Shown piece by piece: positions 91-5,416 of a stretch of 14,250 nucleotides of DNA. Source of the stretch: a virus. Lineage: Duplodnaviria > Heunggongvirae > Uroviricota > Caudoviricetes. The DNA is taken from positions 1-14,250 of the IMG/VR virus record IMGVR_UViG_3300015157_000014; one strand, written 5' to 3'. Position numbers and translations under genes: made by a program. The notes beneath the pieces are model-generated. The model had not been told where the DNA came from, did no database searches, and saw only the letters and a list, made by a program, of their open reading frames with translations. Position 1 is the stretch's first letter. Every line of letters starts with the position of its first letter.

Positions 91-113
91 AAAAAAACCC
101 AGCCGAAGCTGGG
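91..113 (-). terminator. Rho-independent terminator downstream of ant
   Basis: On the minus strand, 6-bp GC-rich stem (cccagc/gctggg, 98..113) with a UUCG loop, immediately followed by a 7-U run (91..97). Lies 19 nt after the ant stop. Confidence 0.6.
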
Positions 114-132
114 TCGTTGCGTTGGTTATCTG

Positions 133-1023
133 TCAGTAGTTATGTACTGAAGGAGGTAATTCTTTATTCTTAAGTCTCATCCATGCGGAAAGATTCTTTG
201 GTCCGTCTGGCTCATTGATATCAACATCTCGTGTGTGATTGATTAAAACGTCTCTCGCCATTCCGATAACATACGAGAATTCATGACCGTAGTCGTAGCA
301 TCTGCCTGAATAGTTCGATTGAATTTGTTTTAGCGCCGGATACAGTTCGCGGAATAATGCCTGTGAACGGTTGGCATAATCCCATAACCATACAAGGCTG
401 TTTGCTTCTTTTGCAGAAAGCTCGTTGGTTTTCTTCTCTTGTTTGCCGATGAATTCACCTTCAAGCACTACCCTGTGGATGTACTCTACGGCCAGCGGGA
501 TTTGTTCAATTGAAAGTTCATCAATGCTGTCAATACCAAAACGCTGATGAACCATATTGTATGCATCGTCATAGCGAAGTCCTTTCTTTCCTACCAGCAT
601 GTTTACTGCATCTCGTAGCGGTGTGCGTTCAGCTACTGAAGTTTTACCTCCAATAGCCTTCCTCTCTTGTGTGGCAGTAACCATTGCGTCATATGCACGG
701 ATAACCTTCAGCGCAAAGGCTGCGCTAATCCACATGGCGTAGGAGTAAACAAGCTCCTTGCACACGTAGGTTCCACCATATCGACCTTTCTTAGAAAGGA
801 CGGGATTCTTATTCTGCATATCCGCAGAATTAAAAATTTCATTAATCAATTCAATAGTTTCATTTCTACGCATGAAGAAAGCTGGCTGATGTTTTTCCTC
901 CTTTCCAGACGCTACATGAAGGTCATTAAGCGAGTAACGCCCCTCTGAATCCATATGAATCTTGACGTCAGAAATGATGATGCTATTAGTGCAATTTACA
1001 GTTGACTTTGCTAAGCTTGACAT
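133..1023 (-). CDS. ant: Antirepressor Ant-like protein (296 aa)
   Basis: Long ORF downstream of arc in the same orientation, close in size to P22 Ant (about 300 aa by recollection). GAGG Shine-Dalgarno about 9 nt upstream of the ATG. The N-terminal region looks like a phage antirepressor DNA-binding domain, but I did not verify the domain. Confidence 0.7.
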
Positions 1024-1055
1024 ATCAATAATACCTCGTAAGTTTTGTTGATACC

Positions 1056-1096
1056 GAAGCCCTGACTGTTACAGCAGTTGGGGCTTCAACGTTTTT
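1056..1096 (+). terminator. Plus-strand hairpin plus T-run; candidate terminator of a sar-like antisense RNA
   Basis: Extended stem 1056..1087 (gaagccc.../...gggcttc with inner actg/cagt pairing), then aacg and TTTTT (1092..1096) on the plus strand. The minus strand has no U-run after it, so it is orientation-specific. The T-run is 4 nt away from the stem, which weakens the call. Confidence 0.3.
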
Positions 1097-1355
1097 CCAC
1101 TTCATTTTGAATTTGCTTAAGTAGCATATTTGTCTCGTCAAGCCTCTTGTTAATACGGTCAAGGCTTTCTACTAAATCGTTATGTGCATGTGATACTTCG
1201 TAATTTGAGACTGATTTTTTTTCCTCTATCGTCTTTGTCAATCGTTCCCCTGATTGATACATATTGATTAACGATGTAAAAATCACGAGCAAGCAAACTA
1301 CAATGATTGCGCCAGACAAAAATTGTAAAGAACGATCAAGCAATGACACCTTCAT
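1086..1355 (-). CDS. Hypothetical small membrane protein (89 aa): one N-terminal transmembrane helix plus C-terminal coiled coil, inserted between arc and ant
   Basis: ATG overlaps the arc TGA stop (ATGA overlap at 1352..1355). GAGAGGGG Shine-Dalgarno-like sequence upstream within the arc 3' end. Hydrophobic stretch AIIVVCLLVIFTSLI followed by a heptad-like charged segment. Visibly AT-rich. Confidence 0.55.
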   Translation of the reverse strand: MKVSLLDRSLQFLSGAIIVVCLLVIFTSLINMYQSGERLTKTIEEKKSVSNYEVSHAHNDLVESLDRINKRLDETNMLLKQIQNEVEKR

Positions 1356-1510
1356 ACCGTAATCCCCTCTCTCTTCAGGCTGTCCATCACTCGCTTGTAA
1401 ATCTCAGAGTTAACAGATCGCCCGTTCTCTTCCGCCACCTTACGCACCAAATCCAATACTTCTTTAGGCCACCGCAAATTGAACTGCGGCATTTTGCTCA
1501 TTCCTTTCAT
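1352..1510 (-). CDS. arc: Arc repressor (ribbon-helix-helix), 52 aa
   Basis: Translation MKGMSKMPQFNLRWPKEVLDLVRKVAEENGRSVNSEIYKRVMDSLKREGITV is near-identical to P22 Arc as I recall it (MKGMSKMPQFNLRWPREVLDLVRKVAEENGRSVNSEIY...). GAGGTGA Shine-Dalgarno 4-5 nt upstream. The start is at the internal Met of the 73-aa track ORF. Confidence 0.9.
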   Translation of the reverse strand: MKGMSKMPQFNLRWPKEVLDLVRKVAEENGRSVNSEIYKRVMDSLKREGITV

Positions 1511-1524
1511 ATTCACCTCACAAT

Positions 1525-1545
1525 ATAGGTCCACCGTGGACCTAT
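1525..1545. promoter_or_regulatory. Mnt operator (O_mnt), perfect 21-bp palindrome
   Basis: ataggtccaccgtggacctat is a perfect inverted repeat about a central base. Its core aggtccac-c-gtggacct matches the P22 mnt operator as I recall it. It overlaps the predicted Pant transcription start. Confidence 0.85.
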
Positions 1546-1573
1546 TGAGAATATAGTAGAGTGCTTCTATCAT
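1545..1573 (+). promoter_or_regulatory. Pmnt promoter (drives mnt and probably the downstream cassette)
   Basis: Plus strand reads TTGAGA (1545..1550), a 17-nt spacer, then TATCAT (1568..1573). It overlaps Pant divergently and is covered by O_arc. GGGGTGA Shine-Dalgarno precedes the mnt ATG. Confidence 0.6.
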
Positions 1574-1578
1574 GTCAA
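1550..1578 (-). promoter_or_regulatory. Pant promoter (drives arc-orf89-ant)
   Basis: Minus strand reads TTGACA (1573..1578), a 17-nt spacer, then TATATT (1550..1555). Predicted start near 1542 falls inside O_mnt. Confidence 0.7.
1553..1573. promoter_or_regulatory. Arc operator (O_arc)
   Basis: atagtagagtgcttctatcat is the reverse complement of ATGATAGAAGCACTCTACTAT, the P22 arc operator as I recall it, with TAGA/TCTA half-sites. It sits between the -35 and -10 of Pant and over the Pmnt -10. Confidence 0.8.
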
Positions 1579-1600: not shown

Positions 1601-1849
1601 ATGGCTAGAGACGATCCGCACTTTAACTTCCGTATGCCTTTGGAAGTAAGAGAAAAATTGAAATTAAGAGCAGAGGCTAACGGAAGGTCAATGAACTCTG
1701 AGTTATTACAAATCGTTCAGGATGCTCTCTCAAAGCCATCACCGATTGCAGGCTATCGAGACGAAGCTGAACGCTTGGCTGATCAGCAAGCAGAAATTGT
1801 TAAGAAGATGGTGTTTGAAACCCTGAAAAAAATGTACGAGACCAGATAG
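1601..1849 (+). CDS. mnt: Mnt repressor (ribbon-helix-helix; maintenance of lysogeny, represses Pant), 82 aa
   Basis: Translation MARDDPHFNFRMPLEVREKLKLRAEANGRSMNSELLQIVQDALSKPSP... is near-identical to P22 Mnt as I recall it. Divergent from arc across the operator region. Confidence 0.9.
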   Translation: MARDDPHFNFRMPLEVREKLKLRAEANGRSMNSELLQIVQDALSKPSPIAGYRDEAERLADQQAEIVKKMVFETLKKMYETR

Positions 1850-1891: not shown

Positions 1892-2491
1892 GTGATTGAG
1901 ATAGGCGTTATGGCCATCCTGAATCAAGAGCCAGGAAAAATTGAAAACGTTTTTTCTGACATATCAACATCTATCGAGCGTTCAATTTCAGACTTTGATC
2001 GCAGTCATAGCGGCTCTTTGTCTAAAAAACAGGCTTCTGAAGCTCTTAGCAAGATCTACTGCGTTATGTCACCTGTAGAGGAAGTTTGCAAAAAGTACAT
2101 TACATTCATTGACATATTAAGTAATGGTACGGAAGAAGATATTTCCTCACTTGATATTCAACATGACGATGTAGATATGTTGAACGATCAAATATCTAAG
2201 CTTGATTATGGTATCGCGAAACTGTTGTATACCTTCTTCATCGCTGAGAACAGCGATGCGTGGAAGCCCCATATGTCAACTCTTACAACAATGAAAAACC
2301 ACTCAATAAATACTTTTATAGAATACAAAAGGCTAACTATGGGGCTTGTGACGCTAGCAATGCAGCACATACCACTATCATATGCTGAACCTGAAGAGTT
2401 CACTGAAGAAGAGTTGGCTTCATTCAAGAAATCAGTTGAAGATTCACATAAAAGATTTGGCATGGAAGCACCAAAATGGAAAACCGCATAA
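1892..2491 (+). CDS. Hypothetical protein (199 aa; 193 aa if the ATG at 1910 is used), acidic, no transmembrane segment; first gene of the accessory cassette
   Basis: Long ORF in visibly AT-rich DNA, directly downstream of mnt with no terminator seen in between. Its 3' end overlaps the next ORF by 16 nt. Start is ambiguous (GTG at 1892 or ATG at 1910). No recognisable motif. Confidence 0.55.
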   Translation: MIEIGVMAILNQEPGKIENVFSDISTSIERSISDFDRSHSGSLSKKQASEALSKIYCVMSPVEEVCKKYITFIDILSNGTEEDISSLDIQHDDVDMLNDQISKLDYGIAKLLYTFFIAENSDAWKPHMSTLTTMKNHSINTFIEYKRLTMGLVTLAMQHIPLSYAEPEEFTEEELASFKKSVEDSHKRFGMEAPKWKTA

Positions 2492-2895
2492 GCATTGTTG
2501 TAGATGCAGCGGCTGGACCATTAGAACAATACTTTGCGAAGGCTCTTGCAAACTACAAAAACAGAGGCACCGTTTCAGCTTATCTTGGTAAGATTGGTGG
2601 GTTTGAGAGAAACCATCACGCCGTCTTATCGGGAATTTACAAGTCGCACATCAGGATCCCTGGAGTAGATGATCCTTGGTTAAAAACAACGCCAATACAT
2701 CGTAGAGTTAGCGATAACTTTTTGATATTTGCGGTACACAACACATATCCAATTCATATCCAGATCATTGCTATCATTAAACCTGATGGTCATGAGAAGG
2801 TAAAAAAACTATTGCCAGCCATCATTGATATAACTGAAAAAAGATTCCAATCTCTAAATGAGAGGGAGCTTAACTCGTTGATTTCATACAAATAA
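2476..2895 (+). CDS. Hypothetical basic protein (139 aa) with a possible RelE/YafQ-like toxin-fold signature
   Basis: ATG preceded by GGAAG about 7 nt upstream; overlaps the 199-aa ORF by 16 nt. The segment GIYKSH...DDPW...HRR...FLIFAVH...IQIIAIIKPDGHE loosely resembles the YafQ/RelE C-terminal pattern (YKDH...PDWILIY...LLRFERTGTH). This rests on weak motif similarity only. Confidence 0.55.
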   Translation: MENRISIVVDAAAGPLEQYFAKALANYKNRGTVSAYLGKIGGFERNHHAVLSGIYKSHIRIPGVDDPWLKTTPIHRRVSDNFLIFAVHNTYPIHIQIIAIIKPDGHEKVKKLLPAIIDITEKRFQSLNERELNSLISYK

Positions 2896-2917: not shown

Positions 2918-3247
2918 GTGCTTGAATGGTTTCTGTTGGCTGCATTAGTCGTTTCTGGTTTGGTGTATGAGTATCGAATGCACTCTCTAACAAAAAAAAT
3001 AGGAATTCTAGAAAACGAATATTGTGCTCTCAAATCCTCACTGGAACGTGATCAAGGAGACTTAAAAATCTCTCTGTCTAGCATTGAGCGTTCTATAGAG
3101 AGCCTAGAGGATAAGGTTGATCGTATAAAGAATGAGGATATTCATGATATTAAGGACGACATATCCTTCTTAAAATCTTGGTTGAAAAATGTTGGGAAAA
3201 TTGCCACATCAACACGAGATAAGCTCAATCCATCCATGGATGACTAA
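2918..3247 (+). CDS. Hypothetical small membrane protein (109 aa): N-terminal transmembrane helix plus coiled coil
   Basis: GTG start with strong AAGGGGG Shine-Dalgarno 5 nt upstream. Hydrophobic N-terminus WFLLAALVVSGLV, then a heptad-like charged region. Its stop abuts the gp16 stop on the opposite strand (TAATTA). Confidence 0.55.
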   Translation: MLEWFLLAALVVSGLVYEYRMHSLTKKIGILENEYCALKSSLERDQGDLKISLSSIERSIESLEDKVDRIKNEDIHDIKDDISFLKSWLKNVGKIATSTRDKLNPSMDD

Positions 3248-5416
3248 TTACTCCTGTGCCATTCCGCTTAGCGATGCCACAATTCCAGCCCTTGCTAAAC
3301 GCTGGAACTCTTCGTTTCCTAGTGCCTCGCGTATTGCTTTTACGGCGGCCTTATTTGCCATAAATCTGCGTTCCGCCGCCGCTAATGCACCATCACTTGC
3401 CCCAACCTTAACTGCCTTTGTTGCCTCTTGAACAGCCTTTTCAATAGCGTAACGACCGCTTCTAGTTGCGGATAATTTCGCTATCGCTCCTTTTGCCATT
3501 GCATCAATTGCTCCACCTGCAGCGCCACCCGCTATTGCTCCAATAACGCCTCCTCCAGAGAACCCTGCGATAGTGCCAGTAGTTCTAAAAGCGCCAGACA
3601 ATGCGCTCTCTAAAACTGGATGAAGGCCATTCTCAAGAGTGCTAATGGCTGGCATAGATCGCCCTGTCTGTTCAACATATCGAAGTGGCTTTGTTGCTGC
3701 TCTTGCAAGTTCTCCGTATGAACTTGTAATCCTGCCAAGTTCTGGAGAATATCGACTAATTGCCTTCACGTTTTGTGGGGTAAGAATAGTCGCGATATGC
3801 TTAATTCCAGCCTCTTCAGACTTACCTCCGCGTACCCCTTGCGACATTGCATCTTGTAATATTGATGCAATTGCTGGCGCGCGTTCCGACTCAGGTAGGG
3901 CGCTTATTATTTTATGGAACTGACCTGTTCCACTTTTTGCTGAGCCCTGTAACGCCTTAGAGCCATTATTTACCAACTGATCAGTTGCAAGGTCTCTGCC
4001 AAACGCTGCTTCAGCCTGTTCTTGTGCTGTAAATCTTGCCTTTGACAGGTCATTAGCTTTTTGCCAGTCATCAAGAAAACCGCCATTTTGAGCCATTATG
4101 CGCATATCTTCCGTTGCTGCATCACGAAGCTCAGCCATGCGCCTTGCCGTATTTGCCTCACCAGACCTTATATACTTCTGCTCTGCGTCAGCAAGTTTAC
4201 TTCGCCATGCCTTCATGGCATCAAACGTGATTCCTTTTTTACCAGTTTTAGCATAAGCAGATGCGAATTGTTTCATCTCAGGAGTTAGCGGCATGCCAGC
4301 CAAAATATCACCCTGAATTGTAGCGTTCAGGTTTGACATTCTGGCCTTTGCGTCAGGCATCGTGGAGCGGACGCTATCCCATGCGGCCTTTTCTGAATTT
4401 TTCATTTTATCAATGCTTGCCAAAACCCTCTGTTTTATGGCTGCACTTTTTTCTGATGCAGTTCCTGCTTCAGCCCCAAACTCATCCAATGCTGAGTTAA
4501 ATTTCGACTCTATTTCACTGAATGCTTTGGTGTGTGCATCCTGTGTAATTCCGGGCTTTGACGCCAGAATCCCCTCCGCCTGAGCAAGACCACGACTACC
4601 TGATCTCATGCCAGGAGTTAATGCGTTGATATCTATTCCAGCAGTATCTGCTGCTTTTGCTATTTCGTCTGACACATTAGCTGACTGTCTGGCAATAATC
4701 TCTCTTCCTGTACCAGACTTTGCCATTTTCGAAACATCAGCAGCGGAATTTATTGCCCCGCCACCAAGAACTTGAGGTGATTTAGAGGTTAAGATCCTTC
4801 CAGCCCCAGAAAGTATCCCCTGAGCACCAATATTGATACCACCGTTAATGGCAGCATTTTGTGCAAAGTCGCCCTCCTGATTTGCAGCATCAGCAAGAGA
4901 ACCTGCAATCATGTTTCCTGCGGAACCGATATCTCCAGCGAGCTTTGCTGGCGCTCCAGCAGCTTTTGCCGCTGTGCCAATTGGCAGGAGATACCCACCA
5001 ATTGTTTCACCGGCTTGCGCATAAGGGTCTGTCGGTCGATCGACTGGACGATAGACATCATCCAAAACCTTTGGGCCACCAAGCCCCTGGCTGATTGCAT
5101 TAATCAGACTTGCGCCACCCTGCAATACGTCAAATGGTATGTTTACCAGACCACGACCAGCCTGTTCTGCAATTTGCCCTGCACTTTGACCACCTGTGAG
5201 CCAATCACCAGCTTGTTGCATCAATGATGGTTCTTCTTTCTGCTGCTGAGGTGGAGGGTATGCTGCATAAAACTGATCTCTTGCTTCAGCCCATTTGTCA
5301 CCAGCCTTAGGGGCAACAACCTCATCAAAATATTGCGCTTGAGCCTGTGCTTTCTGTTCTTCAGTTAACGCCTGATACTGTGGAGAAGCGATAACATCTT
5401 TCCATGCTTTAGCCAT
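3248..5416 (-). CDS. Ejection (internal virion) protein, gp16-like, 722 aa
   Basis: Last gene of the minus-strand late operon, at the position of P22 gene 16. Ala/Gly/Gln-rich composition typical of podovirus ejection proteins. Start overlaps the gp20 stop (TAATG). Confidence 0.8.

What the first reader, a model, noticed from the sequence alone, without database searches (positions are those of the whole stretch)
1086..1355. Extra membrane/coiled-coil gene inserted between arc and ant, translationally coupled to arc
In P22 arc is followed closely by ant. Here a 270-bp AT-rich insertion encodes an 89-aa protein whose ATG overlaps the arc stop (ATGA), with a Shine-Dalgarno embedded in the arc 3' end. 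It is therefore co-expressed with arc and ant from Pant, which is repressed by Mnt in a lysogen and derepressed on infection or in the absence of Mnt. The protein has one transmembrane helix plus a coiled coil. A moron in this operon would be made exactly when antirepressor is made, which suggests a role early in infection or in interference between phages.
Basis: partly seen in the sequence, partly recalled or inferred. Interest (0 to 1): 0.65.

Follow-up and report, generated by a model that had tools for sequence, protein, structure and literature searches.

The report
Swappable small gene after phage arc
A real but uncharacterised 89-residue membrane protein gene sits between the arc repressor gene and the antirepressor gene of a P22-like E. 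coli prophage, and it is one of at least eight unrelated small genes that different phages carry at exactly this spot, which marks the spot as a likely store of phage-versus-phage or phage-versus-host conflict genes.

Summary
On the minus strand, window 1086-1355 is an 89-codon ORF. Its ATG overlaps the arc stop (ATGA) and a GAGGGG Shine-Dalgarno lies 8 nt upstream inside arc. GC is 35.6%. It has one strong TM segment (residues 12-30) and four C-terminal heptads. P22 lacks it: there the arc stop abuts the sar terminator.

Three points are new.
- The sar antisense RNA (1025-1091, Rfam 63.6 bits) still lies between the ORF and ant.
- The gene is not a one-off insertion. In about 67 distinct P22-like immI loci, at least eight unrelated small ORFs (57-89 aa) fill the same slot. 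One is a true ClpX-type zinc finger. Each intact one starts ATGA/GTGA on the arc stop and ends on the TGA at the foot of the sar hairpin.
- The 89-aa cassette is 99-100% identical between loci whose arc and ant are only about 60% identical. An 83-aa subtype (44-54% identity) occupies the same slot in other P22-like prophages, including one in Serratia.

No family, fold or paper gives a function. The control region matches P22 at 88 of 90 bases, so expression should be a Pant burst at infection, silenced by Mnt in lysogens.

Best guess, with low confidence: an inner-membrane conflict protein, acting in transient exclusion or counter-defence.

The parts
1086..1355 (-). ORF89 (RefSeq WP_001555392.1, hypothetical protein; PHROG 27312, unknown function). 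It is the cargo gene in the arc-sar slot. Predicted bitopic membrane protein: TM about residues 10-32, conserved juxtamembrane SGERL, and a C-terminal coiled coil of four heptads.
1364..1369 (-). Shine-Dalgarno GAGGGG for ORF89, inside the arc codons for R-E-G, 8 nt upstream of the ATG. It is part of the conserved left boundary of the slot (GCCTGAAGAGRGAGGGG).
1352..1355 (-). ATGA overlap of the ORF89 start codon and the arc stop codon (translational coupling signature).
1215..1222 (-). A8 homopolymer in ORF89 codons 45-47. A7 frameshift alleles (60 aa) exist in public assemblies. Most other copies carry AAG, which interrupts the run.
1352..1510 (-). arc (52 aa, ends ...LKREGITV). This C-terminal variant co-occurs with an occupied slot. 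P22-type arc (...KKEGRIGA) has an empty slot.
1527..1578 (-). Pant (TTGACA-17-TATATT, 1578-1550) with the Arc operator (1573-1553) and the Mnt operator (1543-1527). The 90-nt control region matches P22 at 88 of 90 bases.
1025..1091 (+). sar antisense RNA. Its terminator hairpin is 1056-1087 and its tail runs to about 1096. The hairpin foot TGA (1086-1088 on the minus strand) is the ORF89 stop codon and forms the conserved right boundary of the slot.
133..1023 (-). ant (296 aa; KilA-N plus P22AR_C domains), downstream in the same operon.
96..115 (-). Intrinsic terminator-like hairpin after ant, upstream of the tailspike start (ATG at 32-30, minus strand).
1601..1849 (+). mnt (82 aa; Arc plus Repressor_Mnt domains), the divergent maintenance repressor expected to keep Pant, and hence ORF89, off in the lysogen.

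Best explanation
SHOWN: ORF89 is a genuine, conserved protein-coding accessory gene. It occupies a sharply delimited cargo slot in the immI (Pant) operon of P22-like phages. The slot's left edge is the arc stop codon, which the cargo start overlaps as ATGA or GTGA, and an SD-bearing variant of the arc 3' end (..LKREG-x-x-x) supplies the ribosome-binding site. The right edge is the TGA at the foot of the sar terminator hairpin. At least eight unrelated small ORFs alternate in this slot, and each is found with several different arc and ant alleles. That pattern fits cassette exchange by recombination in the two conserved flanks. INFERRED from near-identity to the characterised P22 control region: the gene is transcribed from Pant and translated by coupling to arc. 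It would therefore be made in a short pulse right after DNA entry, until Arc shuts Pant off. It would also be made whenever Mnt is absent, and it would be silent in the lysogen. It lies upstream of the sar target and in the sense orientation of the late operon, so it may also be translated from late read-through transcripts when ant is not. INFERRED from sequence: the product is a single-pass inner-membrane protein. The charge balance weakly favours N-in / C-out, which would place a helical coiled-coil domain of about 55 residues in the periplasm. The invariant LSGAIIV face of the TM and the SGERL juxtamembrane motif suggest a specific helix-helix partner rather than a passive anchor. MOST LIKELY FUNCTION (speculative, about one chance in three): a conflict protein acting at the envelope during the first minutes of infection. 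It would transiently block DNA entry by secondary P22-like phages. This would be a SieA-like or T4 Imm/Sp-like job performed by the infecting phage rather than by a prophage.
For: Coding and conservation: the frame is intact in all full-length copies. There are 0-2 synonymous-only differences among four copies. Against a 94%-identical copy there are 7 synonymous and 8 non-synonymous changes, dN/dS 0.29. The 83-aa subtype is 44-54% identical, with differences by codon position of 27-31 / 15-20 / 33-36. That subtype was found in three further contexts, one a Serratia marcescens prophage, always between arc and ant. Slot: 31 of 80 Arc-anchored IMG/VR loci are occupied and 47 are P22-type and empty. 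A scan for the arc 3' motif found eight cargo families with identical junction design. There are 67 unique region sequences, and each cargo is combined with several arc and ant types. ORF89 is 99-100% identical where the arc body is 62-100% and the ant 5' half is 60-100% identical. Regulation: Pant, Oarc and Omnt match P22 at 88 of 90 bases. sar is retained. The scan found no terminator-like site on the coding strand between Pant and the site downstream of ant (115-96), and no promoter-like match between arc and the ORF; two weak matches inside the ORF are within chance expectation. Late transcripts cross this region into the tailspike gene in P22 (PMC2629481, read). Membrane protein: Kyte-Doolittle 2.79, heptads, and flank charges of +2/-1 (N side) against +4/-3 (C side); a single long helix in AlphaFold2; invariant TM residues. 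[quoted passage not shown]
Against: There is no functional evidence of any kind. There is no similarity to SieA. No Pfam, NCBIfam, PADLOC or PDB hit reaches threshold. The other slot alleles appear soluble and several are zinc ribbons, so the slot as a whole is not dedicated to envelope functions. Exclusion proteins of temperate phages are normally expressed from the prophage, whereas this gene should be Mnt-repressed there. The topology call rests on a one-charge difference. Frameshifted alleles occur (A7 in ORF89), which shows the gene is dispensable. Its presence shows no significant relation to sieA (0 of 9 against 9 of 47 loci).
Confidence: 0.45

Rival explanations
1. Counter-defence cargo. 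The arc-sar slot would be an anti-defence locus built like an acr-aca operon. A strong promoter fires at DNA entry and is then shut by its own small repressor (Arc playing the Aca role), and interchangeable small inhibitor genes ride on it. ORF89 would neutralise a membrane-embedded host or prophage defence or exclusion system, for example a Sie or abortive-infection effector of a resident prophage that the incoming phage is also attacking with Ant.
For: At least eight unrelated small genes turn over in one slot flanked by conserved sequence, and each combines with many arc and ant types. This pattern is typical of conflict loci. One allele is a bona fide ClpX zinc-binding domain (42 bits against a gathering score of 27), and three more are Cys4 ribbons linked to it by shared weak profile matches (PHROG 5259/7150, weak Pfam zf-C4_ClpX). 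From established knowledge, free protease-domain decoys and protease inhibitors are a known phage route to blocking toxin-antitoxin-type abortive infection (T7 Gp4.5 against Lon). Timing at DNA entry, and co-expression with Ant, a weapon against resident prophage repressors, both fit. The invariant TM face suggests a specific membrane partner.
Against: No cargo family matches any known anti-defence protein, and PHROGs lists them all as unknown. Known anti-defence proteins are overwhelmingly soluble. The gene order is the reverse of typical acr-aca operons (repressor first). Nothing links ORF89 to any particular defence system.
Confidence: 0.25
2. Host-physiology modulator that biases the lysis-lysogeny decision or takes over the host. 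In this reading ORF89 is a small membrane protein that inhibits a membrane machine such as FtsH (as lambda CIII does) or the divisome (an FtsB/FtsL-like TM plus coiled coil acting as a decoy).
For: The architecture (short N-terminus, TM, coiled coil) resembles FtsB/FtsL-type bitopic proteins. A ClpX-ZBD allele in the same slot hints at a proteolysis-control theme. The pulse at infection is the time when the decision is taken.
Against: No Pfam hit to FtsB/DivIC, CIII or PspB families. The gene is rare (14 of 5426 complete E. coli genomes) and is replaced by unrelated genes, which is not expected for a core decision function. From established knowledge, P22-like phages already carry c3/kil-type functions in the early-left operon.
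Confidence: 0.1
3. Lysis-related late protein (i-spanin-like, holin or antiholin-like), made from late read-through transcripts.
For: The N-terminal TM plus helical domain is the i-spanin / T4 RI layout. There are weak PHROG hits to Rz-like spanin (E = 0.048). The gene has the sense orientation of the late operon.
Against: No partner lipoprotein ORF is embedded or adjacent: the same-strand internal ORFs have no lipobox. The gene is not in a lysis cassette. The hits are at noise level. The TM is strongly hydrophobic, so it is not SAR-like. The other alleles of the slot are soluble.
Confidence: 0.05
4. Toxin of an Arc-linked toxin-antitoxin-like pair. This would be an RHH autorepressor followed by a 4-nt-overlapping downstream gene, the canonical type II TA layout, with ORF89 as a membrane-depolarising toxin.
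For: An RHH repressor is followed by an ATGA-coupled small gene in an autorepressed operon. Small single-TM proteins are frequent toxins.
Against: Arc here is 52 aa, which is the bare RHH domain with no toxin-neutralising C-terminal extension. The same arc 3' end is paired with eight unrelated partners. P22 Arc functions with no partner. No toxin family matches.
Confidence: 0.05
5. Non-functional filler: an ORF kept open by chance in recently spread DNA.
For: Most copies are nearly identical, so selection is hard to measure among them. Frameshift alleles exist.
Against: An open frame is unlikely by chance in this composition (P about 0.001). The 83-aa subtype, at 44-54% identity, keeps the frame, the TM, the conserved motifs, the coupling and the position. 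dN/dS is 0.29.
Confidence: 0.03

Closest known systems
Phage P22 immI operon (Pant-arc-[sar]-ant with divergent mnt)
   Same: Arc (Pfam Arc, 94 bits), Mnt, Ant (P22AR_C) and the sar RNA (Rfam, 63.6 bits) are all present. The Pant/Oarc/Omnt control region matches at 88 of 90 bases. The gene order and the position between the gene 16 homologue and the tailspike gene are the same.
   Different: P22 has nothing between the arc stop and the sar terminator. Here a 270-nt coupled gene sits there. The last residues of Arc differ (..REGITV against ..EGRIGA). The N-terminal domain of Ant is KilA-N type.
The 'ant moron' of P22-like phages (Villafane et al. 2008, PMC2629481)
   Same: [quoted passage not shown]
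   Different: In the passages I read, that description is at whole-gene-set level. I found no mention there of a precise, translationally coupled slot between arc and sar. The paper states that CUS-3 lacks arc, whereas an unannotated arc plus a 67-aa cargo gene are present in the CUS-3 record.
Classical morons (for example HK97 gp15)
   Same: An AT-rich accessory gene that is absent from close relatives and inserted between conserved genes.
   Different: No promoter or terminator of its own was found. It borrows Pant, the arc ribosome traffic and the sar hairpin, and by inference it is not prophage-expressed.
Phage inner-membrane superinfection-exclusion proteins (P22 SieA; T4 Imm and Sp)
   Same: A small phage-encoded inner-membrane protein. 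SieA is encoded in the same variable region (PMC10883804). From established knowledge, T4 Imm and Sp are made early by the infecting phage.
   Different: No sequence similarity to SieA. One TM helix against a larger SieA of 164 aa. SieA is expressed from the prophage. No exclusion phenotype has been tested.
acr-aca anti-CRISPR / anti-defence operons
   Same: A strong early promoter is shut off by a small operon-encoded repressor. Diverse, small, rapidly exchanged genes ride on that conserved regulator.
   Different: The repressor is an RHH (Arc) and comes first. The cargo is translationally coupled to it. No cargo family matches a known anti-defence protein.
Bitopic TM plus coiled-coil proteins (lambda Rz i-spanin, FtsB/FtsL, PspB)
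   Same: Architecture only: short N-terminus, one TM helix, helical coiled-coil tail.
   Different: No profile match reaches threshold. There is no o-spanin partner and no lysis-cassette context.

Membership tests
P22-type immI operon | Arc RHH repressor gene immediately downstream of Pant, with the Arc and Mnt operators | tested here: met
   Pfam Arc 94 bits. Control region matches annotated P22 at 88 of 90 bases.
P22-type immI operon | sar antisense RNA covering the ant ribosome-binding site | tested here: met
   RF00262, 63.6 bits against a gathering score of 43, window 1025-1091 (+). The promoter positions homologous to P22 Psar look weak here (my reading).
P22-type immI operon | arc stop directly followed by the sar terminator and then ant | tested here: not met
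   About 260 nt of extra coding sequence lies between the arc stop and the hairpin.
Moron (autonomously expressed insertion) | Atypical (AT-rich) composition and absence from close relatives | tested here: met
   GC 35.6% against 47-50%. Absent from P22 and from 47 of 80 related loci.
Moron (autonomously expressed insertion) | Own promoter and own terminator | tested here: not met
   There is no promoter-like site between Pant and the ORF start. The internal matches are within chance expectation (11 found against 8.8 +/- 2.5 expected). The only hairpin at its 3' end is the sar terminator on the other strand.
SieA superinfection exclusion proteins | Sequence similarity to SieA | tested here: not met
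   BLASTP against P22 SieA gives no alignment at E <= 100. Only the P22 sequence type was available for testing.
SieA superinfection exclusion proteins | Expression from the prophage and a block of P22-like DNA injection | not testable with these tools
   By inference the gene is Mnt-repressed in lysogens. A phenotype needs experiment.
i-spanin (Rz-like) | N-terminal TM plus periplasmic coiled coil | tested here: inconclusive
   The architecture is compatible. PHROG 214 hit is only E = 0.048. Topology has not been measured.
i-spanin (Rz-like) | Cognate o-spanin lipoprotein gene embedded, overlapping or adjacent, within a lysis cassette | tested here: not met
   The same-strand internal ORFs (1180-1296, 1025-1162) have no lipobox. 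The neighbours are arc and ant.
Type II toxin-antitoxin (RHH antitoxin plus toxin) | Autorepressed bicistron with overlapping genes | tested here: met
   ATGA overlap, and Arc autorepresses Pant in P22.
Type II toxin-antitoxin (RHH antitoxin plus toxin) | Antitoxin with a toxin-neutralising extension, and a recognisable toxin family | tested here: not met
   Arc is 52 aa and is RHH only. ORF89 has no hit in Pfam, NCBIfam or PADLOC.
acr-aca-like anti-defence operon | Diverse small genes exchanged next to a conserved autorepressor under a strong early promoter | tested here: met
   Eight cargo families combined with several arc and ant types. Pant is TTGACA-17-TATATT.
acr-aca-like anti-defence operon | Cargo inhibits a defence system | not testable with these tools
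   No homology to known inhibitors. PHROG categories are unknown.
Pfam DUF948 / DUF1664 / DUF4446 | Score at or above the gathering threshold | tested here: not met
   13-16.5 bits against cut-offs of 27-37 bits. These are coiled-coil or TM composition matches.
PHROG 27312 (unknown function) | Full-length profile match | tested here: met
   E = 6.5e-61 over 1-89 of 89 positions. The 83-aa subtype also matches, E = 4.8e-19.

The most novel reading that the evidence does not exclude
The arc-sar slot is a previously unrecognised counter-immunity cassette site of P22-like phages. In this reading Arc acts as an Aca-like shut-off switch and doses, by translational coupling, a pulse of interchangeable small effectors fired at the moment of DNA entry together with antirepressor. 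ORF89 would be a new kind of membrane-embedded inhibitor of a membrane-based exclusion or abortive-infection system. The ClpX-zinc-finger alleles would be protease decoys.
Probability: 0.2. Interest if true: 0.8.

Novelty: new variant of a known kind. Interest (0 to 1): 0.5.

Why it matters
P22 immI is a textbook regulatory circuit (Arc, Mnt, sar, Ant), and its surroundings are known to be variable. This work shows that one exact position inside the operon is a plug-in site for at least eight unrelated small genes. Each is dosed by translational coupling to Arc and each terminates at the foot of the sar hairpin. That gives a short, well-defined list of candidate effectors, with known timing, for phage-phage or phage-host conflict. 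The list includes a conserved single-pass membrane protein and stand-alone ClpX zinc-finger domains. All of them can be tested in genetically tractable phages (CUS-3, Emek, EC.P3, or P22 engineered to carry each cassette). If the function turns out to be mundane, the finding still corrects the annotation of CUS-3 and illustrates cassette exchange through short conserved boundary sequences.

Tried and rejected
- Homology searches on ORF89 found no function. Pfam, PHROGs, NCBIfam, PADLOC and PDB sequences gave only PHROG 27312 (unknown) and sub-threshold coiled-coil or TM noise.
- The word-indexed search of 5.8 billion proteins and the exhaustive HMMER search of 1.84 billion representatives found only near-identical copies, frameshift fragments and the 83-aa subtype. 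The family is confined to this slot.
- AlphaFold2 on the shallow family alignment gave one long helix. I did not run fold searches because a single helix gives meaningless matches.
- ORF89 is not related to the other TM plus coiled-coil protein in the window (hkcB-like, 2918-3247; E = 2.7) or to P22 SieA.
- A co-occurrence test of ORF89 against sieA, hkcB and the YafO module in 80 loci gave no usable signal (0 of 9 against 9 of 47 for sieA).
- There are no tandem repeats in the region.
- Literature searches turned up nothing on genes between arc and ant. I searched WP_001555392, 'ant moron', Emek, ClpX zinc finger with antirepressor, and SieA. The library lacks most subscription-journal papers, so a prior description cannot be excluded.
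- I considered and rejected the spanin, holin, toxin-antitoxin and chance-ORF readings, for the reasons given under the rival explanations.

Full report
**Source and layout.** The window matches at 100% a CUS-3-like (P22-like, Lederbergvirus) prophage integrated next to a tRNA-Arg gene and intS in E. coli O2:K1 APEC and related strains. Reading the minus strand from high to low coordinates, the order is as follows:
- structural and ejection genes, ending with a gene-16-like DNA transfer gene (5416-3248);
- a plus-strand block: an hkcB-like gene, a YafO-like gene, a 199-aa gene and mnt (3247-1601);
- Pant with its operators (1578-1527);
- arc (1510-1352), then the ORF in question (1355-1086);
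- the sar region (1091-1025), ant (1023-133), a terminator (115-96) and the tailspike start (32).

**Observation check.** The 89-codon ORF is present.
- Its ATG (1355-1353) overlaps the arc TGA (1354-1352). GAGGGG (1369-1364) lies 8 nt upstream, inside arc.
- GC is 35.6%, against 47% for arc and about 50% for the structural genes. Residues 12-30 give a Kyte-Doolittle mean of 2.79. Residues 61-86 show a clean heptad pattern: L, L, I, L, T, L, I, V.
- AlphaFold2 predicts one helix spanning residues 5-88.
- An open frame of this length is unlikely in this composition (P about 0.001).
- In annotated P22, arc and ant are 68 nt apart and that spacer is sar. The four-way alignment shows P22 missing about 260 nt exactly between the arc stop and the conserved hairpin TGAAGCCCC...GGGCTTC.
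What it missed is that sar (Rfam RF00262, 63.6 bits) is retained between the new gene and ant.

**Is it a real gene?** Yes.
- The identical protein (WP_001555392.1) is annotated in several E. coli genomes and in phage EC.P3, and the DNA matches in phage S.Kent 1-2-1.
- Four copies differ only by synonymous changes. A 94%-identical copy gives 7 synonymous and 8 non-synonymous changes, dN/dS 0.29.
- Profile searching found an 83-aa subtype with 44-54% identity. One example is in a Serratia marcescens P22-like prophage.
- This subtype keeps the frame, the TM, an invariant LSGAIIV stretch, F26-T27, a juxtamembrane SG-x-RL motif, and scattered coiled-coil positions. Nucleotide differences follow the coding pattern, position 3 > 1 > 2.
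- In every context recovered, the gene lies between a 52-aa arc and ant.
- The family is rare. It occurs in 14 of 5426 complete E. coli genomes, always as a single copy next to arc, and it was not found anywhere else.

**The main new result: a cargo slot.** I anchored on Arc in IMG/VR.
- Of 80 loci, 47 have the P22-type arc end (..KKEGRIGA) with the hairpin 3 nt after the stop. Thirty-one have the ..LKREG-x-x-x end plus an insert of 167, 215, 218 or 263 nt.
- The inserts are unrelated ORFs.
- A second scan used the arc 3' motif GCCTGAAGAGRGAGGGG. It widened the list to eight families: 57, 60, 63, 67, 73, 74, 80 and 89/83 aa.
- All begin with ATGA or GTGA on the arc stop. Every intact copy ends on the TGA that forms the foot of the sar terminator.
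- De-duplicated, there are 67 distinct region sequences. Each cargo is found with several arc and ant types.
- For ORF89 specifically, the cassette stays 99-100% identical while the arc body drops to 62% and the ant 5' half to 60%. This is the signature of cassette exchange by recombination in short conserved flanks.
- None of the cargo families has a known function. However, the 60-aa one is a bona fide ClpX C4 zinc finger (42 bits against a gathering score of 27). The 63-, 67- and 74-aa ones are Cys4 ribbons linked to it only by shared weak profile matches. The 73- and 80-aa ones both weakly resemble FlbD.
- Among isolated phages the cargos are sparse: Emek has the 73-aa gene, CUS-3 the 67-aa gene, phiv205-1 the 57-aa gene, and EC.P3 and S.Kent 1-2-1 have ORF89.

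**Regulation (inferred).**
- The 90-nt mnt-arc control region matches the experimentally characterised P22 sequence at 88 of 90 bases, including Pant and both operators.
- No promoter-like site lies between Pant and the ORF start, and the scan found no terminator-like site on the coding strand between Pant and the site downstream of ant (115-96). The promoter-like matches inside the ORF are within chance expectation.
- The gene should therefore be transcribed from Pant and translated in step with Arc. That means a pulse at DNA entry, shut off by Arc, and silence under Mnt in the lysogen.
- In P22, late antiterminated transcripts cross this region in the same sense to reach the tailspike gene (PMC2629481). 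sar pairs only with the ant ribosome-binding region. ORF89 may therefore also be made late, when Ant is not.
- That all cargos stop at the hairpin foot may reflect a need to keep ribosomes out of the sar target structure. This is my inference.

**Function.** Nothing found here bears on it directly.
- Sequence features indicate a bitopic inner-membrane protein.
- Flank charges (N-terminal +2/-1 plus the amino terminus, against C-terminal +4/-3) weakly favour N-in / C-out. The same holds for the 83-aa subtype.
- The invariant TM face argues for a specific intramembrane partner.
- The timing, the company of Ant (a weapon against resident prophage repressors), the high allelic turnover, and the fact that this variable region also houses sieA (PMC10883804) all point to a conflict function at the envelope.
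- I rank transient exclusion of secondary P22-like phages first and counter-defence second (an acr-aca-like logic with Arc as the shut-off). The gap between the two is small.
- I consider a host-physiology modulator, a lysis accessory, a TA-like toxin and a meaningless ORF less likely, for the reasons listed under the rival explanations.

**Comparison with known systems.**
- The operon is a member of the P22 immI type in every tested feature except the arc-sar junction.
- The gene is not a classical moron because it has no promoter or terminator of its own.
- It is not a member of the SieA, spanin, TA-toxin or any Pfam family tested.
- The region's variability was described as the 'ant moron' (PMC2629481). 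In the literature available to me I found no description of this precise coupled slot or of its alleles.

**Verdict.** The gene is already deposited as a hypothetical protein, but its status as one allele of a defined cargo slot appears to be new. I rate it a new variant of a known kind, of moderate interest (0.5). Its function is open and readily testable.

Noticed in passing
window 1892-2895 (+): A 199-aa gene (PHROG 18235, unknown) overlaps by 16 nt a 139-aa YafO-toxin-like gene (Pfam PF13957, 45 bits). Both lie directly downstream of mnt on the lysogen-expressed strand. This may be a prophage-expressed toxin or abortive-infection module. The same pair occurs in 4 of 9 ORF89 loci and, in another prophage, in the opposite orientation.
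   Followed up: partly
window 2918-3247 (+): An hkcB-like 109-aa protein (PHROG 5962) also has an N-terminal TM plus a coiled coil. It sits where P22 has sieA and is unrelated in sequence to ORF89 (E = 2.7).
   Followed up: partly
L003 (CUS-3, CP000711) 3620-4026: The reference CUS-3 record annotates this stretch only as 'bsq2 boundary sequence'. It actually contains a divergent arc (ends ..LKREGVMV) and a coupled 67-aa Cys-rich cargo gene. The published remark that CUS-3 lacks arc therefore looks like an annotation gap.
   Followed up: partly
window 1215-1222: An A8 run lies inside ORF89 (codons 45-47). A7 frameshift alleles giving 60-aa products are present in public assemblies, including an NCBI record. 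Most other copies have AAG, which breaks the run. This could be sequencing error, decay or slippage-prone switching.
   Followed up: partly
IMG/VR loci L093 and others: The 67-aa cargo carries a +1 frameshift (MSKECCFLRH*) in 11 of 24 loci. Cargo genes are therefore often inactivated, or these loci are clonal.
   Followed up: no
L152 and relatives: One slot allele (60 aa, MNKEDGFKCSFCGK...) is a stand-alone ClpX C4 zinc-finger domain (42 bits against a gathering score of 27). Three further alleles (63, 67 and 74 aa) are CxxC...CxxC ribbons linked to it only by shared weak profile matches. They could be ClpX adaptor or substrate decoys.
   Followed up: partly
window 989-1017 (+): At the positions homologous to P22 Psar, the hexamers are poor (GTGCAA ... 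TAAGCT) with this KilA-N-type ant allele, even though the sar body scores well. Whether sar is transcribed here is uncertain.
   Followed up: no
window 1086-1088 and all slot loci: All eight cargo families terminate, when intact, on the same TGA at the foot of the sar terminator hairpin. Other reading frames would read into the hairpin. This suggests a constraint to keep ribosomes out of the sar/ant pairing structure.
   Followed up: no
window 1214-1241 (-): There is a promoter-like match (TTGACA-16-AAAAAT, 10 of 12) inside ORF89, pointing toward ant. It is within chance expectation for the region. If active, it would give ant an Arc/Mnt-independent transcript.
   Followed up: no
L041, L042: Two Arc relatives ending ..KREGIALT have no sar terminator downstream but have a different short sequence. 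This appears to be another immI junction type.
   Followed up: no
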